From assembly GCA_013265495.1 (NCBI GenBank), contig MU058017.1, positions 186,001 to 250,000 of the forward strand: DNA of 64,000 nucleotides. Reading direction: 5' to 3'. The notes beneath the pieces are model-generated. The model searched no databases. It saw nothing but the letters and a program-made list of their open reading frames with translations, and was not told where the DNA came from. How positions within the stretch are numbered: the stretch's first letter is position 1; each line of letters opens with the position of its first letter. Made by a program: the position numbers and the translations under genes. This stretch comes from Vicugna vicugna. Lineage: Eukaryota. Below are positions 1 to 29,250 of the stretch, piece by piece.

Positions 1-620
1 CATGCACCCCAATGTTCATAGCAGCACTATTTACAATAGCGAAGACATGGAAACAACCTAAATGTCCATCGACAGATGACTGAATAAAGAAGTTGTGGTA
101 TATTTAAACAACAGAATACTACTCAGGCATAAAAAATAATAAAATAATGTCATTTGCAGCAACACAGATGGACCTGGAGATTATCATTCTAAGTGAAGTA
201 AGCCAGAAAAAGAAAGAAAAATACCATATGATATCACTTATATGTATAATCTAAAAAATGGACAAACGAATTTACTTACAAAACAGAAAAAGACTCACAG
301 ACATAGAAAACAAACTTATGATTACCAGTGGGGATAAGGGTGTGGGAAGGGATAAACTGGGAGTTTGAGATTTGCAGATACTAATATATATACAATAGAT
401 AAACAAGTTCATACTATATAGCACAGGGAGCTATATTCAATGTCTTGTGGTAACCTATGGCGAAAAAGAATATGAAAATGAATATATGTATGTTCGTGTA
501 TGACTGAAGCATTATGCTGTACACCAGAAACTGACACAACATTATAAACTGACTATACTTCAATTAAAAAATATATATACCATAAATAAATAAATAAATA
601 AAAGAAAAGAAGGAAAGAGG
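1..620 (+). mobile_element. LINE-1 3' end (ORF2 C-terminal remnant, 3'UTR, A-rich tail); continues upstream of the window
   Basis: Typical L1 3' motifs: catgcaccccaatgttcatagcagcactatttacaatagc, ggacctggagattatcattctaagtgaagtaagccag, tgctgtacaccagaaactgacacaacatt, gactatacttcaattaaaaa, then an (AAAT)/A-rich tail. Closely similar to the copies at 54240 and 61124. Confidence 0.95.
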
Positions 621-3900: not shown

Positions 3901-5194
3901 GTATCAATTCAAAACTAGTGTTTTAAAATATCTATTGTCCCTTTATTTACAGGGGCAAAAGAAAAAACTAATTTTATATTAAAAGTGTACACTTTTAATT
4001 TTTTTTCCTCTACTCCAAACAGGAAGGAAAACTTAAAATATTTCCTATGTTTTTGTTCTTTTTGTTTTTCTTCTGCAATTCTAGCTGGCTCATTCCTAGA
4101 TCCAGATTTGAACATAGTGCATCAGTAATTATGGAATTCTTCTCTGTGTGTTTGCTTCCTCAAGCATATATACAGAGATAAGAAGTTTGTTTATAAAATG
4201 TCCTTTCACAATTTACTGCTTGTGTGTTTCTCTTTGTTGGTTGTTAAACTGCCATGCATTAGGCAATAATACAAAAGAAAATAGCTAAACCCTATGTATC
4301 TCTAAAATGTCACTAGTCTCCCAGACATGTGGTCCCCACTCCTTCAGGAATTGTTTGTATAAGCGTCTGTGGCAGAAATTTATTGCCAACCTGCTGAATT
4401 TATGGAAAAGAATGTTTTTGTCTAGATGTGTATCAACATTCCAGGGTCTAGTGGTGTTCCTCGAGGCTAGCACTGTGCTAAGCCCATAGCCAATGCATGT
4501 TTGGTGCTAATATATTTATAAAATTTAAAAATGAGGAAGAAATAAAGAGCACGAATAGGATAACAGAAAGCAGAACAAATGAAAATTACATTTTCTTGGC
4601 TGTCATTAGAAAGACCTAAAATTAAATGTAAGGTATCAACTCATATAGTCATTATAAAGTTAAAATTAAGTAATTTGTATTTATGTATTAACTTAATTTT
4701 TCTTTAAAAGAGTAACCTATGCCTTATGGGCAAGGCCTTTGAGACAAGTTTTAAATGTTAATATTTTCATTTTTTATATCTTAAACTTGAACAAAAAGCT
4801 CCATCAGTGAGCTAAGCACTATATAGTATTAGCAGAGAATGAGCAAGATTGAATTTTACAGCACCTGGCTAGGGAAGATGCATGCTAATTTTAAAAAAGT
4901 AGCAAGGGAAGAAGCCAGGTCCCTTGAGGAAGGACACTGCAATACAATGGCAAGCATATACTTTAGAAATTTCCCCAGTCCTTCCTCAATAAGGCTTTTC
5001 TTGAGTAATTATAAACTGAGGAAACAGAATACATAGAAGTTTCTGAAGGGTGTTAGATACAAGGTCCAAGTAAACACTGAGTTAAATACCTAATGACACA
5101 AAGTGTGGGAAAAAAAAAGGGCATTTCAGCAGGGACACTGCTTTCCATGGACTAGGGAGCCATAAGAAAAATATATATACTAAAAAACAATCTA

Positions 5195-5575
5195 GATACT
5201 AACTACTATATGTAAAATAGATAAACAACAAGGTTCTATTGCATAGCACAGAGAACTATATTCAATATCTTTTAATAACATATAATGAAAAGAATATGAA
5301 AAGAATATATATATATACATATACATATAACTGAAACATTATGCTGTACACCAGCAATTGACACAACATTGTAAATAGACTATACTTCAATTAAAAATAT
5401 TTTTAAAAGCAATCTAAAAAAGAATATGAAAACAAATATATGTATGTATATGCATGACTGGGACATGGTGCTGTACACCAGAAACTGACACATTGTAACT
5501 GGCTGTACTTCAATAATAAATAAATAAATAAATAATAAATAAATAAATAAATAAATAAATAAATATTAAAGACAA
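5195..5575 (+). mobile_element. Two tandem, heavily 5'-truncated L1 3' ends (5195-5400 and ~5418-5575); the second has a (TAAA)n tail
   Basis: Both contain tgctgtacaccag.aa.tgacac..attgtaa...tacttcaat. (TAAA)n runs 5517-5564. Confidence 0.9.
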
Positions 5576-6064: not shown

Positions 6065-8630
6065 GAGAGGCCAAGATGGCGGAGTAGAAGGAGCCAGAGC
6101 TCACTTCCTTTCATGAACACACCAAAATTGCAAATAACAACAGAACAATTATTGCTAAAAAAGACTGGAACCTAATAGAAAAGATCTTCCATAACTGAAA
6201 ACATAAAGAAGAAACCATAAGGAAATGGGTAGGAGGGCTGATTTGCAATATAATCAAATCCCCTACCTACCAGGTGGACGACCCAAACACTGGAGAATAA
6301 TTACATTGCAGAGGTTCTCCCCCGTAAGTGAGAGTTGAGAGCCCCACATCAGGCTCCCTAGCCCAGAGATTTGGCACTGAGAATAGAAGCCCCTAGAGTT
6401 ATTTGGCTTTGAAGGCCAGCAGGGCTTAACTGCAGGAGCTCCATGGGACTTGGGGAAAAAGAGACTTCACTCTTAAAGGACACATGCAAAATCTTGCACT
6501 CACTGGGACCAAGGGCGAAAGCAGTAATTTCATAGGAGCCTGGGTCAGACCTATCAGCTGTTCTTGGAAGGTCTCCTGGGGAGGTAGCTTGGTGGGGACA
6601 CATGTGGCTCATCCTAGGGATATAGACATGGTGATGGACAGATTAGGGAGTATTCATCTGCATGAACTTTCCTTCCTGGAGGCAGACATCTTGCTTGGGT
6701 CATTAGCACCAACACCTAGATCCACCCAACAACCATAGGATCCAGTGCTGGTACAACCCAGGCCAAATAACTAACTGGGTGGGTACACATACCCAACCAT
6801 CAGCAGAAAGGCTGCCTAAAGACTTTCTGAGCCCACAGGTACCTCTAAATATGTCCCTAGACACAGCCCCACCCATCAAAGGGCCAGGACCCACCTCCCC
6901 CCACCAGTGGGCAGATAGCAATCAGCCTCTCCCACGAGGAAACCTGTAAGCCTCTAGATAAGCCTCACCAACCAGGGGGTAGACACCAGAAACAGGAAGA
7001 CTACTATCCTGCAGCCTGTGGAATAACTCCACAAATGCAGGCCAGACTCTACCCTCGGAGCAGCCAGCCTCTGGCCCATGAGTAACAAGAGGGAAGTGTA
7101 CTGCTGTGACTCATAGGACATCTCCTACAGAGGGCCACTTCTTCAAGGTCAAGAAACATAACTAACCTACCACATACATAAAAATACAAATAGAAATTCA
7201 GACAAAATGAGGCAGCAGAGGAATATGTTTCAGACAAAGGAACAAAATAAAATCCCAGAAGAACTAAGTGATATGGAGATAGGCAATCTACCCAAGGAAG
7301 AATTCAGACTAATGATCATAAAGATGATCAGAGAATTAGAAGAATGGGTGCATAGAGTGAGAAATTACAAGTTTCTAGCAAAGAGTTACAAAATAGAAAT
7401 AACAACTTCCAACAGAGTGAAAAATACAATAACTTAAATGAACAATACAGCAAAAGGAACCAACAATAGACTAAATGAGGCAGAAAAATGGATCAGTGGG
7501 TTAGAAAACAGAGTAGTGGAAATCACTGCTGCAAAACAGAAAAAAGAAAAAATAATGCAAAGAAATGAGGACACTTTAAGAGACCTCTGAGACAACTTCA
7601 AGTTCACTGATAATTCACATTACAGGGGTCCCAGGGGGAGAAAAGAGAGAGAAAGGGATAGAGAACATATTTGAAGAGCTAACAGCTGAAAACTTCCCTA
7701 ACTTGGGAAAGAAACAGTCACTCAAGTCAAGGAAGTGCAACATCCCATACAGGATTAACCCTAAGAGGAATACAATGAGACATTTGTCAATTAAAATGAC
7801 AAAAATTAAAGCTACAGAGAGAATTTCAAAACTCCCAACAAACAAAATTCCAGGACTAGATGGCTTCATAGGAGAATACTACTAAACGTTTAGAGAAGAG
7901 TTAACTTATATTATTCTGAAACTATTACAAAAATTTGCAGAGGAAAGAATAGCTCCAAATTCATTCTATGAGGCCACCATCACCCCGATTCCAAAACCAG
8001 ACAAAGATATCATTTGAAAAATTGTAGGCCAATATCACTGATGAACTTAGATGCAAAAATCCTCAAGAAAATACTAGCAAATTGATGCCAGTAATACATT
8101 AAAAGGATCATATACCATGATCAAGTGGGATTTATCCCAGGGATTCAAGGATTTTTCAATATCTGTAAATCAATCAATGTGATACACCACATTAACAAAC
8201 TGAAAAATAAAACCCATATAATGATCTCAATAGATGCAGAAAAAGCTTTTGATAAATTATATTATCCATTTATGAAAAAAATCCTCCAGAAATTGGGCAT
8301 AAGGGAACATACCTTAACATAATAAAGGCCACATATGACAAACCCACAGCTAACATCATACTCAATGGTGAAAAGCTGAAAGCATTTCCTCTAAGATCAT
8401 GAACAAGACAAGGATGCCCACTATCACCACATCTATTCAATATAGTTTTGGAAGTCTTAACCACAGCAATAAGAGAAAAAAAGGAAACAAAAGGAATCTA
8501 AACTGAAAAAGAAGAATTAAAGCAGTCACTGTTTGCAGATGACAAGATACTATACATAGAAAATCCTAAAATCACCACCAGAAAATGACTAAAGCTCACC
8601 AATGGATTTGGTAAAATTGTAGGATAAAAA
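6065..8630 (+). mobile_element. LINE-1 5' portion: 5'UTR, partial ORF1, internal deletion at ~7826, ORF2 reverse-transcriptase region; decayed
   Basis: Starts gaggccaagatggcggag (YY1-site L1 5' end). ORF1 ATG at 7207 (MRQQRNMFQTKEQ...). ORF2 peptides PGLDGFIGEY and [26 protein letters not shown]; ctgtttgcagatgac (LFADD) at ~8530. Stops and frameshifts present. Confidence 0.95.
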
Positions 8631-10254
8631 CACATTTATTGTACCATCCAGCCAAGGGTTCAAACATAAAACATTTCAAAATTTAAGGAGAATATGAAAA
8701 CATCAGGCAATACCTAGAGTACTACTATAAATATAGCCTTTACCTATAGTAAAAAATTTAGCCATTCAACCATTTTGGTCATCATCCCAGTTTTTCTTCA
8801 CACTTGGAGGCTTGGGCTCACCAGCTGACTTTGCCATGATAATCTGATTCACTCTAAGTATAGTGACTGTAGCATTAGTAGCCAGTTTGATAGCCCAGTA
8901 TTTTCTCAGGTAAGTATCTTTAATGCCAGCTTTCAACATGTCCTTTACAGCAGGAACTTCAGCCTCAATATCTAATCCAAACATTTTTATTTCCTTCTTG
9001 ATGTACTGCATAAAGTTTAGAGATTATTTCATTGGCCTAAACTCCACAGTTTTCTGCCAGTACCCAGGAAATAGCTTTGAATGTCTCAGCAAACTTTTTA
9101 ATGGCATACTATTCAAGTCTCCATATGATGTGATCTGTTTGACTAACTCAACTTCTGTTGCTCCACCTCCAGGTACAAGATGTTTATCTCTTGTGAGAAC
9201 TTTGAAAGTATTAATACCATCATCTACTGCTTTTTCTATATTATCCATCATATTGTCTGTAGAGCCTCGAAGCACTATGATAAAAATGGCACCATCTCCC
9301 TTTTTGTGCTTAAAAACAACCACCTGCATATCTCCAACTCGGATAGGTCAACATTGCCAGAATGTCACATTTCTTCAAGGACAGAAGGAGTCAGCCTAGG
9401 AAGAGTGGTAGCACCAACTGTTTTACATAGTCTTCTGATATCCAATTTTGAGTTCTGCCTCACCAACATGATACTGTATTTGTTTGCAAAATGAAGAGTC
9501 ATGTCTGACATGTAAAACAGTTGGTGCTTCTCACACACAAGAGCAAATCAAAACCACTGCTGATACTGGTGCAAATATAACAGGTGGCAAAGTGTCAGAC
9601 ATGATTCTTCATTTACTAAAATTCATCAATCCTTCAGCAGTCTTTATCAGTACCATTCCCTTAGTTTCTGTTCTGCCATCAAAAGGACAAAAGTACACTG
9701 CTATTTTTCCATCTTTGACAGCTGTTACATTACCTTTGGTTTCCTTCTTAAAAACCATGCCATGCAATACCGAAAAGGAATAGATACCAGAACTGAGAAT
9801 CTTACAAACTCTGATGTCATCAACACTGAAATGGCAGGAATCAGGAAAAATAGATACATATGCCTGAGCAATAAGCTTGGCTGGAAACACTTTATTTACC
9901 ATACTCTTTACTCATTATGGAACTATGGAGGAGAGATGACACTCCATCAACATCCTGAAGGTTTTTTGCAGAACAACATACCAAGTCAGGAAGAATCTCA
10001 TGGGCTTTTCTGCAGGATATTTTAAAACTTTCTATGACTCTGAAACTCACAGGCCAACTCTCAGAAGCTCTTCAGCTAATTCCAAAAGAGCTCCAGCAAA
10101 AAGCAGAACAAAATTTCTGCCATCTCCAACTTCTTGCTCTTGTGTGTGAGAAGCTATTATGATCATTTTTGCAGCAGGATGCTGTACTTCTAGCTCACTT
10201 AAAATAGCTACTGCATTGATTGTTACAAACAACTTCTCCAAGTGGTTGATAATA
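8631..10254 (-). pseudogene. CCT8: Processed pseudogene of CCT8 (TCP-1 theta): 5'-truncated, frameshifted, internally rearranged
   Basis: Minus-strand peptides match CCT8 in order with no introns: INHLEKLFVT..LEVQHPAAKMI..QEQEVGDG.NFVL.FAGALLELAEELLR; HF.VD.IRVCKIL..G..SVLHGMVFKKET.G; QVVVFKH..DGAI..IVLRGSTDN; VPGGGATEVEL; GLDIEAEVPAVKDML.AGI.DTYL.KYWAIKLATNA..IIMAK..G.PKPPS.KK.WDDDQN. Stop at 8766-8768, 3'UTR, AATAAA at 8635-8640 (-). About the first 55 codons are missing. Confidence 0.96.
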
Positions 10255-10682
10255 GTGTCATTTGTAGCAGCATGGATGGACCTAGAGATTATCACACTAA
10301 ATGAAGTAAGTCAAAGACAAATATCATATGATATCACTTATACGTGGAATCTTAAAAAATGATACAAATGAACTTATTTAAAAAACAAATTCACAGACAT
10401 CAAAAACAAACTCATGGTTACCAAAGGGGAAAGGGGATGGGGATAAACTAGGAGTCTGGGATTAACAGATGCACACTACTATACATAGAACAGAGAAACA
10501 ACAAGGATCTACTACATGGCATAGGTAACAATATTCAATATCTTGTAATAACCTATAATGAAAAAGAATCTGAAAAAGTAAAAATATATATATATATGTA
10601 ACTGAATCACTCTGCTGTACACCTGAAACTAACACAACATTGTAAATCAACTATACTTCAATAAAAAATAAACAAAAATTTT
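10255..10682 (+). mobile_element. LINE-1 3' end (ORF2 terminus, 3'UTR, A-rich tail), followed by a short repeat of L1 3' sequence at ~10689-10745
   Basis: gtcatttgtagcagcatggatggacctagagattatcacactaaatgaagtaagtc ... tgctgtacacctgaaactaacacaacattgtaaatcaactatacttcaataaaaaat. Confidence 0.93.
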
Positions 10683-11004
10683 TAAACGCCATATGACATC
10701 ACTTATATGAGGAATCTAAAAAAAAGACACAAATGAAATACTTACTATTTATAACTTAGTTGACTGATTTCTTGAATATGTATAAGCACATTTGACTGTC
10801 CTTTATGATTGGATTACCCCATTCTGTTGATTCTTATTTTGTAGTTGGTTTTATTCCTTTGATAACTATGTAAGTTTAAAAAGCTAAAGCTCTAATCTGT
10901 TCCTAGAAACAATGATCAGTACATTTATGTAAACTAAAATATGTGCAGTATACTATATATATGTATTTACATGCAATATAATATATATGTGCAGTTAAAC
11001 TGTC

Positions 11005-13448
11005 TTCAGAGCTAAATACACAAATAGACTGAAAGTGAGGGGGGAAAAATAATTTCTTGCAAATGTAAATGACAAGAAAGTGGAGGTAGCAACATTCAAA
11101 TCAGATAAAGTATATTTGAAAAGAAAGTCTATAAAAAAGAGAGAAGGGCATTATAAAGACAAATGGATCAATACAAGAAGAAGATATTACACTTGTTAAT
11201 ATGACTGCTTTTAATACAGGAGCATCTAAATGCATAAAACAAATATTAACACACATAAAAGGAGAAACTGACAATAATACAATAACATCCCATATACATC
11301 AACAGAATGACTATCCAGACAGAAAATCAGTAAGAAAACAGTGGTCTTAAGAAGACCAGTTGGAATTAATAAATGTCTACAGGACATTATATCTAACAAC
11401 AGCAGAATACAGTTTTTGCAAGTGCATATAGAACGTTCTAGGATAGATCCTATGCTAGGACACAGAAGTCTCAACAAATTTAAGAGAAAAACAGTATCAA
11501 GCATCGTTTCCAATCACAATGGTAGTAAACTAGAAATCAGTCACAAGAAGAAAAATTGGAAAAACTCACACTTGAAGACTAATAAACACCATGCTAGTGG
11601 AAAAAAAGAAAAAACAGTCAGTGAAGAATTCCAAGAGGAAGTCAGAAAATACCTCAAGACAAATAAAAATGGAAACATACTTTCCAAAACTATGGAAGGC
11701 AGCAAATGTTCTAAGAGGGAAGTTTGCAGCAATACAGGCCTGCCTTAAGACACAAGAAAAATCTCAAATAAACAACCTAACCTGCTATCTAAAGGAATTA
11801 GAAAAAGGAACAATGAACAAGGCCCAAAGTCAGCAGAAAGAAAAAAATAATAAAGATCAATGAAACTGATTTGCTTTTTTTTTATTTTTGAAAAAATAAA
11901 CAAAATTGATAAACCTTTGCCAAGGTCATCCAGAAAAAAAAAAAGAGAGAGAAGTCATATAAAATACGAAATGAAAGAGGACAAAAAACCACCAATATCA
12001 CAGAGATACAAAAATATATATAACCAAATACTATGAAAAATTATATCCAACAAATTGGACAACCTAGAAAAAATGGACACATTTCTAGGAATTTGGCCTT
12101 CTACAAATTGGACTTCCAGAAATTTTAGATTTCTACAATTTTAATTTCTAGAATTTCAAGACTAAATCAGAAATAAACAGACATTCTCAACAGGACCAAT
12201 TACTAGTATTGAAACTGATTTGTAATAAAAACCTCTCAGGAAACTAAAATCCTGAACAGGATGGCTTCACAGGAGAATTCTACCAGACATATAAAGAAGA
12301 GCTAATATCCATCTTTCCCAAGCTATTCCAAAAAATTGAAGAGCATGGAACATTCTCAAATTCATTCTACAACTCACCATTACTCTGATACCAAAACCAG
12401 ACAAAGACACTACAAAAAAAAAAGGAAATTACGGGATAGTATCTCTGATGAACATAGATGTAAAAATTATCAATAAAATACTAGCAAACTGAATTCACCA
12501 ATATGTAAAAAGGATCATACATCATGATCAAGTGTGATTTATTCCAGGGATGCAAGAATGGTTCAGTATCCACAAATTAATCCATGTGATATACCACATT
12601 ACAAAAAGGATAAAAATTACATAATCATTTCAATAGACAGAGAAAAAAGCATTTGACAAAATTTAACACCCATTCATGATACAAATTCCCATTAAACTGG
12701 TATAGAGAAAACATATCTCAATATAGGAAAGATCATTTTTGACAAATGCATAGCGAACATCATACTCAACAGTGAAAAGCTTGAAGCTTTCCTTTTAAAT
12801 AAGAAACAAGACAAGGATGCCCATTCTCACCATTTCTATTCAACATAGTATTAAAAGTCTTAACTATAGCAATCAGACAAGTAAAAGAAATAAGAGGTAT
12901 TCAAACTGGAAAGACAGAAATAAATTTGTCACTATTTGCAGATAGCATGATACTATATACAGAAAACCCATAAAGTCTCCACCAAAAAAAAAACCCTTTT
13001 AGAATAAGTGAATTCAGTAAAGTTGTAGAATACAAGATTAATATCCAGAAATGTGTTGTTTTTCTATACACTAATAATGAATTATCAGAAAGAGAAAGCA
13101 GAAAAAAAGACCGTTTAAAACTGCATCAAAAACAATAAAATACTTAGGAGTAAACTTAAGCACAGGGTAAAAGACCAATACTGTAAAAACCATTAAACAC
13201 TGATGAAGGAAACTGATAATGTTGCAAAGAAACATCATTTCATTATAGGTGTTCCTTCCATGGGTTGGAAGAATTAATACTGATAAAATGGTCATACTAC
13301 CCATACAATTTACAGATTTAATAAAATCTCTGTCAAAATACCTATGACATTTTTCACAAAACTAGAAAAAATTATCATAAAATTTATATGAAATCACAAA
13401 AGATCCAGAATTGACAAAGTAATCATGGGTAAAAAGAACAAATCTCGA
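11005..13448 (+). mobile_element. LINE-1 ORF2 segment (endonuclease through RT), truncated at both ends, decayed
   Basis: agactgaaagtgagggg (EN domain), SRIDPMLGH motif, ggatggcttcacaggagaattctaccagac, ctatttgcagat. Ends abruptly at aaaaagaacaaatctcgag, where the next L1 5'UTR begins. Confidence 0.93.
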
Positions 13449-15624
13449 GATAATTCACAAGTGGCCACATAGGAAGATCCTAACCTCATCTCTTCTTACA
13501 AACACATCAAAATTACAACTAATTACCACAACAAAAGTTACAGAAAATTACAAACACATCAAAATTACAACTAATTACACAAAAAATTACTGTTGATAAG
13601 TAAGACTGGAATCTCCAGAAAAGATCTTCTACAATTAAGTATAAGGAAGGAACAACAATGAGGTGGAATGGAGGAGTGGAGTCACAGTTTGGTTAAGATC
13701 CGTAACTTTAAGTGGTGATCCACAAACAGGAGAATAATTACAATTGCAGAGATTCTTCTCAAGGAGCAAGGGGTCTGAGCCACACATCAGGCTCTCCAAA
13801 CTGGCAGTCCTGCACCAGGAAAACAAGCCCTGAGAACATCTGGCTGTGAAGGCTGGTGGGGCTTACTTTCAGAAGACCCGGAGGGCTGTGGGAAATAAGA
13901 CACTCCACTCTTAAAGGATGCACACAAAATCTCACATGCTCTGGGGCCCAGATCAGAAGGAGTAATTTGAAAGAAGCCTGAGTCACACCCACCTGCTGAT
14001 CTTGGAGAGGCTTTGAGAGAGGCAGGAGGAAACTGGAGGTAACACTGAGAACACAGACACTGGAGGTAGCCATTTTGGGGAGCTTATTCTACCATGTGGA
14101 CACTGGTGCTCACAAGCACTAGTTTGGAATCTTCCCTCTAGCTTATTGAACTTAGGTCCAAGCCCTACCACACACTGACCCCAACAGAGTGGGACACCTC
14201 AGGCCAAGCAACAAACAAGGTGGGGACATGGCCCCACCTACCAACAGGCAGGCTCCCAAATGACTCTTTGAGACCACAACCACCTCTGGACACTGCCCTG
14301 TCCATCACAGGGCCCAGAACTCAGTTCCACATATCAGAGTGCAGGCACTAGACTCGGCTGAATGAGGAGCCCGAAGTGTCAGGGCCCTGAAGCCAGATAC
14401 CCCATGACCCAGCTCCATTCACCAGTGGGTAGATAGCAGCCTAAGGACACAGTGGGCACCAGCTGTGCCTACCTGGGGACTGACACCAGCCCCAAGATTT
14501 CTGCTTTCCTGAAGTATATTACCAATAGACCCAGCCCACCCACCAGCAGGCTGGCACCAGCCCCAGGATCCCACTGGCCCCCACCCCAATCACCAGCAGA
14601 TCAAATCCAGCTCTGGGACACCTTGAACCCAACATCCAGTAGCCCCAGGATCTAGCTCCACTTATCAGCTGGCTGACAACAGCTTCAGGAACCCCTGGGC
14701 CTTGCCACTAGAGACCCTGGGATACATCTCCACCCACCAGTGAGCCATCAGTAGCCCTTGGATCACTTGGTCTCCAGCCCTGGCACCAGCCCACCAACAC
14801 CAGCTCTGAGAGACATTGGACTCCTCAGCCAGCTGCCTCACTAGGCCCACACGACCTTTCAGATATCTGAGACCTGCAGCCAGCCATATCAAGAACACTC
14901 CCACCCACCAGCAGGCTGAAGCTAGATCCAGGAACTCTGGTCCTTCAACTACCTACTCCAGAACCTGGCTCTGCTCACCAGTGAGGCAAAACTACCCAAG
15001 GCCCCCTCCACAGCCAGCTACATCATGACACAGCCCTACCAACCAGTGGTAGACAGAATCTGCACAAGGCAGGGCATAGCAACCAACCCAGCCAGTGCCC
15101 AGCCATGCCTGGAGACCACCCACAGCAATCAGCCCACCAAAACAGAAAAACTCATGCGGCCTACATAAGAGATGCCCCTAGAGAATATATCTCTGGTGAC
15201 CAGAGGGGGAGTTCTGGGATGCAGAGGATATCTCCTACAAAAAGTCACTTCTGCAAGATCAAGATCAGGTAGCATAACCAACCTACCAACAGAGAACAAA
15301 AGCAGCATATTAGGCAAAATGAGATGACAGAAGAACATTTTCCAAATGAAGGAACAAGATTAAAAATCCCAAAGAACTAAATGAAGTGGAGACAGACAAT
15401 CTATCCAACAAAAAGTTCAAAGAAACAATTGCAAAGATGATCAAAGAATTAGGAGAAGAATGGATGAATAGAGTAAGAAGTTAGACTTTTTAACAAGTAG
15501 TTATAAAATATAAAGAAGAATCAAGCAATAAAATGAGTAAACTAAAAAATACACAGGAAGAAATCAACAGTAGATTAGTTGATACAGAAGAACATAGTGA
15601 GCAGAAAATCACTGAACCTGAATA

Positions 15625-15723
15625 ACAGAAAGAAAAAGAAAGAAAGAAAAGAAAGGAAAGGAAAGAAGAAAAAAGAAAAGAAAAAAAGGAAAGAAAAAGA
15701 AAGAAGGAAGGAAGGAAGGAAAA
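15625..15723. repeat. Purine-rich (GAAA)n/(GGAA)n microsatellite inside L1 ORF1
   Basis: Directly visible agaaagaaaaagaaagaaagaaaag...gaaggaaggaagga. Confidence 0.9.
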
Positions 15724-16626
15724 TCAGGACAGTTTAAGAAACTTCTAGGATAATAACAGACATAGTAACAGTCTTATTATGGAGGTCCTAGAAGGTTAAC
15801 AGAGATAGAAAGTAGCAGAGAATATATGTGAAGAAATATTAGCTGACATCTTTCCTAACCTGGGAAAGCAAACAAACACCCAAGTCTGGGAAGCACAGAG
15901 AGTCTCAATCAGGATCAACACAAAAAGGATGACAGAAAAGACACATTGTAATTAAAATGGCAAAAATTAAAGATAAAGAGAATATAAAAAGCAGCACAGG
16001 AAAAGCAACAAGTTCCATATAAGGAAATTTCCTTAAGGCTACTTCTCAAATTGCAAGGGAAAGAACAGAAAAGGAAAGGAACAAAAAGAAACAAACAAAA
16101 GAACTACAACATAATCCCAGAATAATGAACAAAATGGCAGTAAGTACATGCCTATTAATAATTACTTTAAATGTAAATAAACTAAGTGCTCCAGTCAAAA
16201 AACAGACAGCAGATAAACGGGTACAAAATAAAAAAGCATATATATATTGCCTACAAGAGACTCACTTCAGACCTAAAAACATATACAGACTAAAAGTGAA
16301 GGGGTAGAAGAAGTTATTTCATGCAAATAGAAATCAAAATAAAGCTGGGTAGCAATACTTATATCAAAAAGATAGACTTTAAAATAAAGATGTAACAAGA
16401 GACAAAGAAGGTTATATAATGATCAAGGAATAAATTCAAGAAAACAATTATCAATATATCTAATATAGGAGCACCTAAGTACATAGAGCAAATATTAACA
16501 GACATAAAGGGAGAAATTGAGAGTAACACAATGACAGTAAGGGAATTTAACACTCCACTTACATCAATGAACAGAGTATTAGTAAGGAAACATTGGCCTT
16601 AACTAACAAATGAGACCAGCGGAACT

Positions 16627-16671
16627 AACAGACAGACAGAGACAGACACAGAGAGACAGACAGACAGAGAT
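16627..16671. repeat. (GACA)n/(GA)n microsatellite inside L1 ORF2
   Basis: aacagacagacagagacagacacagagagacagacagacagagat. Confidence 0.85.
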
Positions 16672-19600
16672 AAAGATTTCATCCCAAAGCAGCAGAATAC
16701 ATATTCTTTTCAAGTTCACATGGAATATTTTTCAGGATAGATCACATGCTTGGCCACAAAACAAGTCTCAGTAAATTAAACAAAGCTGAAATCATACTGA
16801 GCATCCTTTCTGACCATAAATCTATGAGACTAGTAATTAATCAACTACAAAAAACTGAAGAAGAAAACAAAAACACAAGGAAGTTAAACAGTACACTACT
16901 AAACAAAAAATGAACCACTGAAGAAAGCAAAAAAGAAATTAAAAATACTCAGAGACAAATGAAAATGAACACACAATTTGGGACACAGCAAGCAGTTCAA
17001 AGAGTGGAGTTCATACTGATACAAATCTATCTCAGGAAACAAAAAAACCTCAAACAACCTAACCTTACACCTAAAAGAACTAGAAAAAGAATAACAAACA
17101 AAACCCAAGGTTAGCAGAAGGAAAGAAATCATAGAGCAGAAATACATGAAATAGTGTCTAAATAAATAACAGAAAAGATAAATGGGACTAAGATCTGGTT
17201 TTTTGAAAAGAAACAAAATACATAAATGTTTAAGCAAGAGTCATCAAGAAAAATAAGAGAACATAGAGCAATAAAATCAGAAATGAAATAGAAGTTACAA
17301 CCAACACCACAGAAATACAAAGGATCATAAGAAATTACCATGAAAAATTATATGCCAATAAAATGGACAACTGAGAAGAATTAAACAAAATCCTAGAAAT
17401 GTTCAAGCTCCCCAGGCTAAACCAGGAAAAAAACAAAACAGAAAATATGATCAGATTAGTTACCAGTAAGGAAATGGAATTAGTAGTTTAAAAAAAACTC
17501 TGAACAAATAAAAGCCCAGGACCAGATGGATACATTGATGAATTTTACCAAACATTTTGAGAAGAGTTAACACCTATCCATCTCAAACTTTTCCATAATA
17601 TTGTAGAAAAAGAAATTCTGTTCATTCTATGAAGTCAGCATCACCCTGGTACTAAAACCAGACAGAGAAATCACACAAAAAAAGAAAATCACAGGCCAAT
17701 ATCACTGATGACCACAGACAAAAATCCTCAACACAATATTAGCAAACCAAATCCAACAATATGTAAAGGATTATGCACCATGATCAAGCAGGGTTTATTC
17801 CAAGGACGCAAAGATGGTTTGATATCTGTAAATCAATCAGTGTGATACACCACATTAACAAACTGAAGAATAAAAATCATAGGATAGTCTCAATAAATGT
17901 AGAAAAAGCTTTTGACAAAGCTCACTCTCCATTTATGATAAAAAAAAAAAAACTTTTCACAAAGTGGATGTAAAAGGAACATACCTCATCACAAAACAGG
18001 CCAAATATGTTAAGCCCTCAGTTAACATCATACTCAATAGTGAAAAGCTGAAAGTATTTCCTCTAAGATCAGGAACAAGACAACAATCTTCACTCTCATC
18101 ACTTTTATTCAACATAGAACTGGAAGTCCTAGCTATAGCAGTAAGACAAAAAAAAAAAAAAGATAAGTAAAAAGAATCCAAAATGCAAAGGAAGAATTAA
18201 AACTGTCACTATTTGCAGATGACATGATACTATATGTAGAAAATCCTATAGACACCATCAAAAAAATACTAGAGCTGATCAATGAATTTGGTAAAGTTGC
18301 ATGATACAAAATGAATAATTAATGTAAATAAATCTGTTGTACTCCTGTACACTAACAACAGACTATCAGAAAGAGAAGTTAAGGAAACAATCTCATTTAT
18401 AATCACATCAAAAAAAAATACCTAGGAATAAATATAAGCAAATAAAAGACCTGTACTTGGAAAACTATAAGACACTGATTAAAGCAATTAAAGATAATAA
18501 AAAGAGATGGAAAGACACATTACGTTCTTGGATTAGAAGAGTTAATGTTGTTAAAATGACCGTATTACCCAAGGCAATCTACAGATTCATTGCGATCCCT
18601 ATCAAATTACCAAAGGCATTTTTCACAGAACCAGAACAAATAATCTTAAAATTTATTTGGAAATATCAAGGACCCTCAAATACCAAGAGAATCTTCAGAA
18701 AGAACAACAATGCAAAAGTTATCATACTTCCTGACTTCAGACTATACTGCAAAGGTACAGCAATCATTACAGCATGGTTTTGGCATAAAAACAGACACAC
18801 AGATCAATGGAACAGAAAAAAGAGCCCAGAAATAAGCCAACATACTTATGGCCAATTAATCTATGAGAAACGAAGTAAAAATGTACAATGGAGAAAAGCC
18901 AGTCCCTTCAATAAGTGGTGCTGGGGAAACTAGACAGCTACATAGAAAAGAATGAAATTTGAAAAATATCTCACCATATACAAAAATAAACTCAAAATAT
19001 TTTAAAGATATAAATATAAGACTGGAAACCATAAAATTTTTAGAAGAGAATATAGTCAGAACCCTCTTCCACATAAATTGTAGCAATAATTTTTTGGATC
19101 TACTTCCTAAGGCAAAAGAAACAAAAGCAAAATAAAGAAATGGGATCTAATTAAACCTAAAAGCTACCCAGCAAAGGAACTCATTGACAAAATAAAAAGA
19201 CAACTTACTGAATGGGAGACAATATTAGCAAATTATATAACTGATAAGTGCTTAATATTCAAAGTATGTAAATAACTCATACAACTCAATATCAAAGCCT
19301 GATTGAAAATAGGCAAAAGACCTGAATAGATATTTTCCAAAGAAGATATACTCGAGAACAACAGACACTTGAAAAATGCTCAACATCACTTATCTTCAGA
19401 GAAATGCAAATCAAAACTATAGTGAGATATCATCTCACACCTCTCTGAATGGCTATCACCAAAAAGACCAGAAATAGTAAATGCTGGTGAGGTTGTGGAG
19501 AAAAGGGAACCCTTGCACACTGTTGGTGGGAATGTAAATTAGTGTAACCACTAAGGAAATCAGTGTGGACGTTCTTCAGAAAACCGAAAATAGAACTACC

Positions 19601-20254
19601 ATATGAACTAGCAATTATACTCTTGGTATATATCCAAAGAAAACAAAAATTCTAATTCAAAGAAAGATTCATGCACCCCAATCTTTATAGCAGCTTCATT
19701 TAACAATAGTCAAGATATAGAACTAATGTAAGTGTCCATCAGCAGATGAAAGGATAAAGAAGATACACATACACACACAGAGACAATGGAATACCACACA
19801 ACCATATAAAAGACTGAATTTTGCCATTTGCAACAACATAAATCGTCCTGGAGGGTATTATGCTTAATGAAATAGGTCAGACATAGAAAGACAAATACTG
19901 CATGTTATCACTAATATGTGGAATATAAAAAATAAAATAAATATAACAAAACAGAAACATACTCACAGATATATAGAACAAACTAATGGTTACAAGTGGG
20001 GAGAGTGAAGTGGGTAGGGGCAAGATATGTGCAATGGATTGAGATACAAATTACTATGTATAAAATTAATAAGTAACAAGGATATATTGTGAAGTACAGG
20101 AAAACATACCCATTATTTTGTAATAACTTTAAATGGGGTATAATCTATAAAAATACTGAATGATTATGTTGTACACCTGAAACTAATATAATACTATAAA
20201 TCAAATATACTTCAATTTTAATATTTCTAAATTCAAAAAATAAATTGTTAAAAA

Positions 20255-27570: not shown

Positions 27571-28272
27571 TGCTGTGATTCTCAGCCAATAGAACTCCAC
27601 CCGGGAAGAGCACGGATTCTCCTCCTGTGTCTCCCTCACCCCTCCAATGCTATTTGGAGACGCAATCTGCTTACTTCTGTGAGAGTTATATAATAAGTGG
27701 GAAGTGAAGACAGCTGAGCCTGCTCTGAAACCATGATAAATAGCCCCGATGTCCTGATTGCGCCTTCCCTATTGGAGGCCAAGGAACTCCATACAGACAT
27801 GGGAAGGATTAACTGGTACTCCAGCTGAGTGCAAACTGGCACAAGGGCCAGGCACATGTAGGCCACGTGAGGTTACTCTGAGACATCTCCTTTCTGGGAG
27901 GACCTGGATTTCCCCTCTCCCATTACAGTGTCAGATTCCTGAGTCCCAGAGGCCCCCAGTGCAGCCACAACAAGCCAGGGTGCCAGACACAGTGGTAAGT
28001 AGCAGGAACCTAACCTTGACTGTATCAGGACTCACTCCAACTCTTAGTAACTCGGGCAACTCACTTGGCCACCAGCACTGTTTTCTCCCAACTTTGCTAA
28101 AACAGCCAAGTCTGTGATTGCTGATGCCTGGTAGCGACATTTCCATTCTAGGCCAGGGACTATGAAAGATAATGCTTAAAAAATATAAAAGAGACAATAT
28201 GATTAATGTTTTTGTTAAAAGTATTTGTTTTAGTGTTAAAACATCATTAAAGTGGCTGGAGTGGTAGATAAA

Positions 28273-29250
28273 TTTTGGGCACTCTGTGACTAAAGGGACA
28301 CACCACCCATGTCCCCAGCTGATGTGAGGCCAAACTCTTCAGATACCAGTTAACCATGTGGGAAGAATGAAGGCTGAAACTGGCAAATGACAAGAGTATC
28401 GCCTCTCACAGGCCAAACCCCACACCAGAGAGATGTACTGAGCCTTCCATGAAGTTACCCAGACTGGGCCTCTTGTTTCTTTCTGAAATGCGTGTTCCAA
28501 CAGTATTAGACACGTTCTGGAAACAAGTACATTTCCAAATGATGAGTTCTGAGGTGAAGATTTGTCAGTCGTATGGTAATGTGGATAAAAAACAAATATT
28601 TGGTGGTAAACTGCCTGGCCCTTAAAAAGACACTACAAAATTTGGTTTGACTGCAGACGAAGTTAATGATCAAGGTTTTGTGTCTAATTCATTGTCACAG
28701 AAGGGAAATAACCCTCCCTTATTTTTGTTTGTTTTTTCTTGCTGCATGTTTGATGCCACATTAAAGCATACCAAAATAGCAATTCAGCCTCAGAGATAGA
28801 TTTTTAATGCAAGACTCCTCATACCAGATTGCTCTCTTCCAACATCTGTTGGTATGTTTTCCAGCCTTATCTCCCCATCCAAAAAATAAAATAAAAAAGA
28901 GAGTTCAGGATCTAAACATACTTTAACTCTATCTCATTGAATAAAACCATTGAGTAAACACTATTCAAGTGTCCGGAGGGACTGATTACTTTTTGGCCTC
29001 TGTGACTTAAGGGATGTACCACCTGTGTCCCCAGCTGACATGAAGCCAAACTCTGCTCAGATACTGGTACTGAATTGGCAAATGACAGGAACATCGTCTC
29101 TCACAGGCCAAACCCTGCACCAGACAGTTACCCAGACTGGGCCTCTCATTTGTTTCTGAAATGCATGTTCCAACAGTATTAGACACGCTCTGGAAGCAAG
29201 GATATGTTTCTGAAGGGAGTTCAGGGGTGAAGACTTGTCAGTAGTATGGT
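28273..29250 (+). repeat. Diverged direct duplication: copy 1 ~28273-28577, copy 2 ~28991-29250
   Basis: Shared collinear blocks: ctctgtgact.aaggga, gtccccagctga, tggcaaatgaca, ctctcacaggccaaaccc, agttacccagactgggcctct, tgttccaacagtattagacacg, ggtgaaga.ttgtcagt.gtatggt. Confidence 0.92.

What the first reader, a model, noticed from the sequence alone, without database searches (positions are those of the whole stretch)
9489..9614. Inverted three-template patchwork inside the CCT8 pseudogene
Seen: within a minus-strand pseudogene, 9510-9614 reads as CCT8 on the PLUS strand (CKTVGA-SHTQE-QIKTTADTGANITGGKVSDMILH). It has three pieces. (A) 9510-9528 is the exact 19-nt reverse complement of 9410-9428. 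(B) 9526-9546 is the exact 21-nt reverse complement of 10134-10154, ~600 bp away. (C) 9544-9614 is the native segment flipped, and its last 22 nt (9593-9614) form an inverted repeat with 9489-9510 (1 mismatch). A/B overlap by gct and B/C by caa, and the GEENLMDA-coding stretch is missing. Inference: serial microhomology-mediated template switching (FoSTeS/MMBIR, polymerase-theta templated insertion, or RT jumping during cDNA synthesis). Copies and donors agree at residues that differ from human CCT8 as I recall it (SHT vs SHM, VSD vs VAD), which would date the event after the pseudogene began to mutate.
Basis: seen in the sequence. Interest (0 to 1): 0.75.

Follow-up and report, generated by a model that had tools for sequence, protein, structure and literature searches.

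The report
Copying-error scar in old pseudogene
A 105-base stretch of a dead CCT8 chaperonin gene copy was rebuilt from three short backward copies of the same gene, most likely in a DNA copying or repair accident long after the copy was inserted; it is a neat, datable example of a known kind of mutation, with no sign of function.

Summary
Positions 9510-9614 consist wholly of three reverse-complement pieces of the same CCT8 processed pseudogene (19, 21 and 71 nt), joined by overlaps of 1, 3, 2-3 and 2-3 nt. 24 nt of coding sequence are lost. Four template switches reproduce the observed sequence with one mismatch. The event is much younger than the pseudogene. The pseudogene differs from conserved CCT8 at 58 of 606 non-degenerate sites (9.6%), but copies and donors differ at 1 of 62 nt (11.9 expected, P = 3e-5) and share four non-parental substitutions. 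That supports DNA-level template switching after insertion and argues against reverse-transcriptase jumping on the parental mRNA. The structure matches complex microhomology-mediated templated insertions, which are common germline variants in human genomes (PMC8421209). The enzyme cannot be read from the sequence; a 71-nt tract fits polymerase theta poorly. The junctions were not checked in independent reads, so an assembly artefact is unlikely but untested. The scan has noted similar patchwork scars in other genomes. Verdict: real, ordinary, low interest.

The parts
8631..10252 (-). CCT8 (TCP-1 theta) processed pseudogene, 5'-truncated at about Val56, intronless, with stops and frameshifts; AATAAA at 8635-8640, no poly(A) tail, no target-site duplication found
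   Evidence: tblastn, PDB matches to T-complex protein 1 subunit theta, Pfam PF00118, codon alignment, duplication search
9510..9528 (+). Piece A: inverted copy of 9410-9428 (codons of LCKTVGA)
   Evidence: 19 of 19 exact
9526..9546 (+). Piece B: inverted copy of 10134-10154 (ASHTQEQ), carrying the non-parental Met-to-Thr codon (ATG to ACA, two changes)
   Evidence: 21 of 21 exact; codons; parent residue
9544..9614 (+). Piece C: native segment Gln268-His292 (P0004 numbering) flipped; lacks two Val codons; 8 of 40 non-degenerate conserved sites changed
9593..9614 (+). Right arm of the 22-nt inverted repeat made by the event (duplicated VSDM(T/I)LH codons)
   Evidence: 21 of 22 to 9489-9510
9489..9510 (-). 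Left arm of the inverted repeat: native sequence where the original template is resumed
9410..9428 (-). Donor of piece A (offset +156 to +174 from the Lys codon in the inferred pre-event strand)
10134..10154 (-). Donor of piece B (offset -542 to -522)
9612..9614 (.). Outer junction: end of the Lys codon (FSK) joined to inverted C, 2-3 nt overlap; the 24 nt coding GEENLMDA are lost here
6065..8630 (+). Host L1, 5' part (5' UTR, ORF1, part of ORF2); has its own internal gap of about 1.5 kb at 7820/7828. The 5' start at about 6065 is read from a recalled L1 start motif; the alignment begins at 6116
   Evidence: blastn to the L1 copy at 13553-20216; sequence
10251..10670 (+). L1 3' end; overlaps the pseudogene's 5' end by 2 nt; about 1.5 kb of L1 between the two L1 parts is absent
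   Evidence: 8630 maps to 18310 and 10256 to 19822 of the reference copy

Best explanation
A neutral germline mutation scar. Long after a CCT8 cDNA copy had inserted and decayed, a stalled or broken nascent DNA strand left its template four times in one event, each time re-priming at 1-3 matching bases. Read along the plus strand: synthesis stopped at 9510, copied 19 nt from the opposite-sense template 82-100 nt behind (A, which can be a fold-back on the new strand itself), hopped to a site about 600 nt ahead for 21 nt (B), then to the segment around the stall for 71 nt (C), and returned to the original template 24 nt beyond the start of C's donor. The mirror order on the minus strand gives the same product. 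All three pieces were copied from the same strand. Net change +28 nt. It works like MMBIR / FoSTeS / serial replication slippage in trans. SHOWN: piece identities, junction overlaps, complete accounting of bases, young age relative to the pseudogene. INFERRED: one event, a replication-fork or break setting, direction. NOT KNOWN: the polymerase. All post-insertion DNA-level readings together (this one and the first two rivals): about 0.85.
For: Four switches rebuild 1208 nt with one mismatch, at 9605 (49 nt of C come from the observed sequence by construction, so only A, B and the 22-nt arm are real tests). Overlaps are 1, 3, at least 2 and at least 2 nt, where a random junction in this sequence has at least 2 nt in 17.5% and at least 3 nt in 6.3% of 200,000 draws. 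Age: 58 of 606 conserved non-degenerate sites changed (9.6%, 95% interval 7.4-12.1%) against 1 of 62 nt between copies and donors (11.9 expected if both dated from insertion, P = 3e-5; point estimate 8% of the pseudogene's age, upper 95% bound 39%). Four substitutions absent from the parent protein are shared by copy and donor (two in ATG to ACA; Ala to Ser; first base of Ala to Thr/Ile) against one private change. C alone has switch offsets 0, 25, 74, 95, the order that PMC5453318 calls type 1-3-4-2. Multi-template germline events of this kind made up 33 of 103 and 26 of 99 curated calls in two human genomes (PMC8421209).
Against: Junctions were not seen in independent reads or in an orthologue. 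No parental nucleotide sequence was obtained (best of 80 kept loci 81% identical at protein level), so silent sites and the third base of two overlaps are untested. B lies 520-620 nt away, beyond the 100-nt range of the classical signature. One junction has only 1 nt of exact overlap. Pieces A and B were delimited as exact matches, which biases the 1-in-62 count low, though no unexplained bases are left between pieces. One event cannot be told from two closely spaced events.
Confidence: 0.62

Rival explanations
1. Two steps. First a fold-back at a break in the GEENLMDA region made a perfect palindrome of about 71 bp or more (antisense C followed by sense C) with loss of 24 nt. Later the unstable palindrome broke or stalled a fork near its tip; 49 nt of the left arm were lost and replaced by templated patches A and B, leaving the 22-bp inverted repeat.
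For: B joins C exactly where the palindrome's centre would be. It explains how a single broken end could template C. The only copy-donor mismatch is in the C arm, as expected if C were slightly older. Palindrome instability is established (PMC7999016, start of abstract).
Against: Needs two rare events at one site; 1 mismatch in 22 against 0 in 40 is not a significant difference; no intermediate was seen.
Confidence: 0.15
2. Polymerase-theta-mediated end joining of one double-strand break: the left end snapped back to copy A, the right end was extended with C and B, and the two new ends annealed at the shared GCT.
For: A and B (19, 21 nt) lie in the 3-30 bp range of theta scars, inverted-repeat insertions are frequent among them, and longer ones involve several rounds (PMC7165422 passages). 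The best-supported overlap (3 nt, both donors present) is the central A/B junction.
Against: Single synthesis tracts are 'rarely more than 10 bp' in that study; C is 71 nt. C spans the deleted native position, so it needs an intact template that a simple two-ended break does not supply (inference). B's donor is more than 500 nt away.
Confidence: 0.08
3. Assembly or library artefact (chimeric molecule or mis-joined graph).
For: No independent read evidence was obtained. An exact 25-nt pattern across the A/B junction had 0 matches in the metagenome contigs, a collection not expected to hold this genome. The 14 best DNA runs hold 77-85% of 283 sampled words of 8000-10800, and the missing share is large enough to hide the junction words.
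Against: Four junctions within 105 nt built from 19- and 21-nt pieces are not what graph mis-joins give (own knowledge). C holds 49 nt found nowhere else in the window in either orientation, and the repeat arms differ at one base, as after real evolution.
Confidence: 0.07
4. The insert is a second-hand copy: an already decayed CCT8 pseudogene (as RNA, cDNA or DNA) was pasted into this L1 in place of about 1.5 kb, and the middle was scrambled in that same insertion. Shared mutations then come from the source copy.
For: No poly(A), no target-site duplication, short overlaps with L1 at the ends and about 1.5 kb of L1 missing. Templated insertions and chimeric inverted cDNA/L1 junctions occur at L1-induced breaks (PMC11702581 passages).
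Against: Target-site deletion (5 of 24) and a missing tail (3 of 24) also occur in first-hand pseudogene insertions (PMC3996531). The host L1 parts carry 10.9% (59 of 539) and 15.1% (53 of 350) private changes, compatible with an old insertion into an older L1. The same L1 has another 1.5-kb gap without any insert.
Confidence: 0.06
5. Reverse-transcriptase jumping or twin priming on the parental CCT8 mRNA at the original retrotransposition.
For: 21% (9 of 42) of somatic processed pseudogenes carry an internal inversion (PMC3996531).
Against: Those are single inversions; here the 5' part (9612-10252) keeps the orientation of the 3' part and there are four junctions. Copies would then have diverged from donors at about 12 of 62 nt and show 1, and four non-parental changes would have to arise twice.
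Confidence: 0.02

Closest known systems
Complex microhomology-mediated templated insertions (complex MMB-TI), Osia et al. 2021, PMC8421209 (seen: passages; section 10 part 1)
   Same: Insertion built from several nearby templates, reverse-complement copying, 1-3 nt microhomology or microhomeology at junctions, no larger rearrangement, present as a germline variant; up to five templates per event are reported.
   Different: All three pieces here are inverted (their worked example is one reverse, two forward); one donor is over 500 nt away, outside their 100-bp search; not a human genome; it lies in a pseudogene whose decay dates it; no read support here.
Four-point template-switch model, type 1-3-4-2, Loytynoja and Goldman 2017, PMC5453318 (seen: passages; section 4)
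   Same: Piece C with the outer junctions has the order 1-3-4-2 and leaves an inverted repeat around an inverted spacer; that type was 23% of their human-chimp events.
   Different: The model covers one switch and return and explicitly leaves out multiple successive rounds; here two more templates (B, A) are visited before the return.
Serial replication slippage in trans / FoSTeS (Chen et al. 2005; Lee et al. 2007; seen only as cited and summarised in PMC5453318)
   Same: Several successive switches of a nascent strand at 2-3 bases of identity, giving inversions with deletions and duplications.
   Different: Those cases were mostly disease alleles or long-range; this one is 105 nt, local and neutral.
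Polymerase-theta templated insertions (TINS), Carvajal-Garcia et al. 2020, PMC7165422 (seen: passages)
   Same: Short direct or inverted copies of flanking DNA at a deletion, several rounds, joined at short microhomologies.
   Different: Tracts there are 3-30 bp in all and single rounds rarely over 10 bp; C is 71 nt and B comes from over 500 nt away.
Twin-priming inversions in processed pseudogenes, Cooke et al. 2014, PMC3996531 (seen: passages)
   Same: An inverted part of the cDNA inside a processed pseudogene.
   Different: Twin priming gives one inversion made at insertion; here a short internal patch of three pieces, made after about 9-10% decay.

Membership tests
Complex MMB-TI (MMBIR-like templated insertion) | Insert is the reverse complement of nearby template(s) | tested here: met
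   A 19 of 19, B 21 of 21, C arm 21 of 22
Complex MMB-TI (MMBIR-like templated insertion) | Two or more templates in one insert | tested here: met
   Three templates at offsets +25..95, -542..-522, +156..174
Complex MMB-TI (MMBIR-like templated insertion) | Microhomology or microhomeology at junctions | tested here: met
   1 (4 with a bulge), 3, at least 2, at least 2 nt; chance of at least 2 nt is 17.5% per junction
Complex MMB-TI (MMBIR-like templated insertion) | First template within about 100 bp of the insertion | tested here: met
   A's donor is 82-100 nt from the 9510 junction and C's donor ends 95 nt from the other outer junction; the middle template B is 520-620 nt away
Complex MMB-TI (MMBIR-like templated insertion) | Junctions supported by sequencing reads against an unrearranged reference allele | not tested
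   No reads or orthologue were laid across the junctions; word shares cannot decide it
Complex MMB-TI (MMBIR-like templated insertion) | Origin in interrupted replication or break-induced replication | not testable with these tools
   Needs genetic experiments
Four-point template-switch mutation | Fragment 2-3 copied in reverse complement, return to the original template | tested here: met
   Offsets 0, 95, 25, 74 give order 1-3-4-2
Four-point template-switch mutation | A single switch and return | tested here: not met
   Four switches are needed; the model excludes multiple rounds
Polymerase-theta TINS | Templated tract of 3-30 bp, single rounds rarely over 10 bp | tested here: not met
   A 19 and B 21 nt fit the outer range; C is 71 nt
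Polymerase-theta TINS | Dependence on POLQ | not testable with these tools
   Needs knockout cells
Twin-priming inversion | One inversion that reaches the 5' outer end of the insert | tested here: not met
   5' part 9612-10252 has the same orientation as the 3' part
Twin-priming inversion | Made at insertion, from parental alleles | tested here: not met
   1 of 62 differences against 11.9 expected; four shared non-parental changes
L1-made processed pseudogene (host element) | Intronless copy of a spliced mRNA | tested here: met
   About 490 codons align within 1.5 kb with only small gaps; that the parent gene has many introns is recalled
L1-made processed pseudogene (host element) | Poly(A) tail | tested here: not met
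   L1-like sequence begins within about 4-9 nt of AATAAA; 3 of 24 somatic cases also lacked a tail
L1-made processed pseudogene (host element) | Target-site duplication | tested here: not met
   Longest word shared by the two flanks is 6 nt; about 1.5 kb of L1 is missing instead

The most novel reading that the evidence does not exclude
The whole 1.6-kb CCT8 insert is a repair patch: a transcript or DNA of an already decayed CCT8 pseudogene was copied into a broken L1 in place of about 1.5 kb, without poly(A) priming, and the three-template scramble arose in that same act. That would be a germline record of a pseudogene-templated break repair with serial template switching inside the patch.
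Probability: 0.06. Interest if true: 0.45.

Novelty: new member of a known kind. Interest (0 to 1): 0.17.

Why it matters
It matters little biologically: the scar is in a dead gene inside a dead L1 and makes no open frame. Its modest value is as a teaching-quality specimen. Because the parental protein is almost invariant, the pre-event sequence and the age can be inferred without an outgroup, which shows that an internal inversion in a processed pseudogene need not date from retrotransposition. Old retrocopies of conserved genes could serve as ready-made references for counting and dating multi-switch events in species without population data.

Tried and rejected
No whole genome is held for this window, so no search for other CCT8 pseudogenes, the parental exons or a source copy was possible. 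Run listing: 14 DNA runs under three organism codes hold 77-85% of 283 sampled words of 8000-10800; this shows the locus is widespread but cannot show the junctions, and the small shares (0.02-0.08) were not used. An exact junction pattern found 0 stretches in the metagenome contigs. A scan for parental-like mRNA with P0004 kept 80 of 524 confirmed stretches, none above 81% protein identity, so none was used. Target-site duplications were sought around the pseudogene and the host L1; the longest shared words were 6-8 nt, rejected as chance. The higher change rate in piece C (8 of 40 against 9.6%) was considered as a sign of error-prone synthesis and not claimed: three of the changes are shared with the native arm or ambiguous, and the comparison is post hoc. 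The Tyr-to-Phe change was dropped from the list of shared mutations because its base lies in the ambiguous overlap at 9612-9614. Folding the product as DNA gave -23.0 kcal/mol from the 22-bp arm, which is a consequence of the event; no shuffle control was run and no function is inferred. Pfam found a family for 1 of 15 open frames scanned, the CCT8 piece. PMC11724301 was seen only as a search listing. A search for CCT8 with pseudogene, inversion and template switching gave 107 papers with three of four terms; none of the 15 listed contains 'CCT8', so no description of this locus was seen, and that is not proof of absence. Supplementary files were not read.

Full report
1. What is there. The window is AT-rich mammalian-type DNA (37% G+C) with several L1 pieces. 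At 8631-10252 on the minus strand lies a decayed, intronless copy of CCT8: a 100-residue stop-free stretch matches T-complex protein 1 subunit theta in solved structures at E about 1e-42 and Pfam PF00118. The top-ranked ordinary hits are Camelus proteins at 79% identity, but many mammals score 79-81%, so the species is not established here.

2. The observation. All three sequence claims are exact: 9510-9528 is the reverse complement of 9410-9428 (19 of 19), 9526-9546 that of 10134-10154 (21 of 21), and 9489-9510 pairs with 9593-9614 at 21 of 22. In 1000 dinucleotide shuffles of 8631-10254 the longest inverted exact match was 16 nt. tblastn with P0004 puts residues 268-292 on the plus strand at 9544-9612 between minus-strand matches that end at residue 259 and resume at residue 286. 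Eight codons (GEENLMDA) are gone, two Val codons are missing inside the flipped piece, and seven codons are present twice.

3. Anatomy. I inferred the pre-event strand from the window itself, with N for the 24 lost bases. With offset 0 at the end of the Lys codon, template C lies at +25 to +95, B at -542 to -522, A at +156 to +174, and the original template resumes at +74. Four switches give a 1208-nt product that differs from the window at one base, 9605, and the net change is +28 nt. Part of this is circular, since 49 nt of C exist only in the flipped copy; the tests are A, B and the 22-nt arm, and the fact that no untemplated base is left over. Junction overlaps: 1 nt at 9510 (GACA against GACTA gives 4 nt with one bulge), 3 nt GCT at A/B with both donors present, and 2-3 nt at B/C and at 9612-9614, where the Gln and Lys codons force two bases and the third depends on the unknown parental codon. 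Random junctions in this sequence reach 2 nt in 17.5% and 3 nt in 6.3% of 200,000 draws.

4. Timing. Of 120 CCT8 proteins, 110 read SHM, 2 SHV, none SHT, and 8 lacked the motif; 107 matched the KVAD motif and 13 did not match it. The dromedary-named protein has SHMQEQ and KVADMALHY. Against residues conserved in at least 90% of 70 aligned proteins (P0003-P0072, the top hits less the two longer Myotis rows), the two aligned parts of the pseudogene (10252-9612 and 9510-9045; the 3' remainder was not included) differ at 58 of 606 non-degenerate sites, 9.6% with interval 7.4-12.1%. Had copies and donors separated at insertion they would differ at about 11.9 of 62 nt; they differ at 1 (P = 3e-5; 5e-5 on 59 nt). 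The point estimate is the last 8% of the pseudogene's life, with an upper 95% bound of 39-41%. Four non-parental substitutions are shared: two in ATG to ACA (B and donor), Ala to Ser, and the first base of Ala to Thr/Ile (C and native arm). Caveat: A and B were delimited as exact matches, which biases the count low.

5. Mechanism. Because the copies carry the pseudogene's own later mutations, and need both strands of sites up to 700 nt apart as templates, the event took place on genomic DNA. The simplest reading is one bout of serial template switching by a stalled or broken nascent strand (0.62). On the plus strand the first hop is a fold-back 82-100 nt behind the stall, then B about 600 nt ahead, then C around the stall, then return; the mirror order on the minus strand cannot be told apart. 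A two-step history, fold-back palindrome first and patched loss of one arm later, gives the same product (0.15); B joins C where the palindrome's centre would be. Polymerase-theta end joining (0.08) fits A and B but not a 71-nt tract, as single rounds are rarely over 10 bp in PMC7165422. RT jumping on parental mRNA (0.02) is contradicted by the timing; also, during first-strand synthesis the antisense copy of B's region would not yet exist (inference).

6. Surroundings. The pseudogene sits antisense inside L1 sequence: the left L1 part ends at 8630, matching 18310 of another L1 copy in the window, and the right part starts at 10251-10256, matching 19822, so about 1.5 kb of L1 is absent where 1.6 kb of CCT8 stands. 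There is no poly(A) tail and no target-site duplication. This allows a second-hand origin from an older pseudogene, with the scramble made at that step (0.06). Against it, first-hand pseudogene insertions also show target-site deletion (5 of 24) or no tail (3 of 24) (PMC3996531), the L1 parts carry 10.9% and 15.1% private changes in three-way comparisons, and the same L1 has another 1.5-kb gap with no insert.

7. Real or artefact. Not directly tested: no reads or contigs were laid across the junctions. Fourteen DNA runs under three organism codes hold 77-85% of the sampled words of 8000-10800; the best may be the source sample, and the missing share could hide the junction words. A junction pattern had no match in metagenome contigs, where this genome is not expected. 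Internal evidence favours a real allele: four junctions in 105 nt from 19- and 21-nt pieces, and a mismatch between the arms. I leave 0.07 for an artefact.

8. Comparison with what is known. It works like, and meets all four sequence features I could test of, the complex MMB-TI class: 33 of 103 and 26 of 99 curated germline calls in two human individuals were complex, with up to five templates (PMC8421209). Its outer frame is the 1-3-4-2 type of the four-point model, but that model excludes multiple rounds (PMC5453318), so it is not a member. It is not a twin-priming inversion. None of the 15 listed papers of a search for CCT8 with pseudogene, inversion and template switching contains 'CCT8'. 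Earlier notes of this scan describe similar patchwork scars in other genomes (unchecked) and none near this locus.

9. Verdict. Observation confirmed, interpretation supported with the RT option removed. A new member of a known kind of neutral mutation. Interest 0.17.

Noticed in passing
window 8631-10252 and flanks 6065-8630, 10251-10670: The CCT8 copy lacks poly(A) and target-site duplication and stands antisense in place of about 1.5 kb of L1 ORF2; either insertion with target-site deletion, later deletion, or a repair patch.
   Followed up: partly
window 7820-7828: The host L1 has a second gap of about 1.5 kb (end of ORF1 to mid ORF2; 15981 to 17494 of the reference copy), joined in an A-rich run with no insert.
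   Followed up: partly
window 13496-13590: In another L1 5' UTR, a 31-nt exact direct duplication (13496-13526 and 13548-13578) with short repeated pieces between the copies; looks like a serial-slippage or templated-insertion scar.
   Followed up: no
window 3978-3999: Perfect 22-nt palindrome flanked by A-rich and T-rich runs, the only other short-range inverted exact match of 18 nt or more in the window.
   Followed up: no
window 9500-9512: The junction at 9510 creates a 6-bp hairpin with a one-base loop; the return could also be read as two tiny switches at 3 and 4 nt of overlap instead of one at 1 nt (sequence).
   Followed up: no
window 10690-10737: A 48-nt L1 3' fragment just after the host L1's A-rich tail, 87.5% identical to 10325-10372.
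   Followed up: no
window 28239-28577 and 28956-29250: Diverged direct repeat of about 340 nt (71.7% with gaps, E 5e-53), copies about 700 nt apart; nature not identified.
   Followed up: no
window 5288-5522: 127-nt tandem duplication at an L1 3' end followed by an (AATA)n tail.
   Followed up: no
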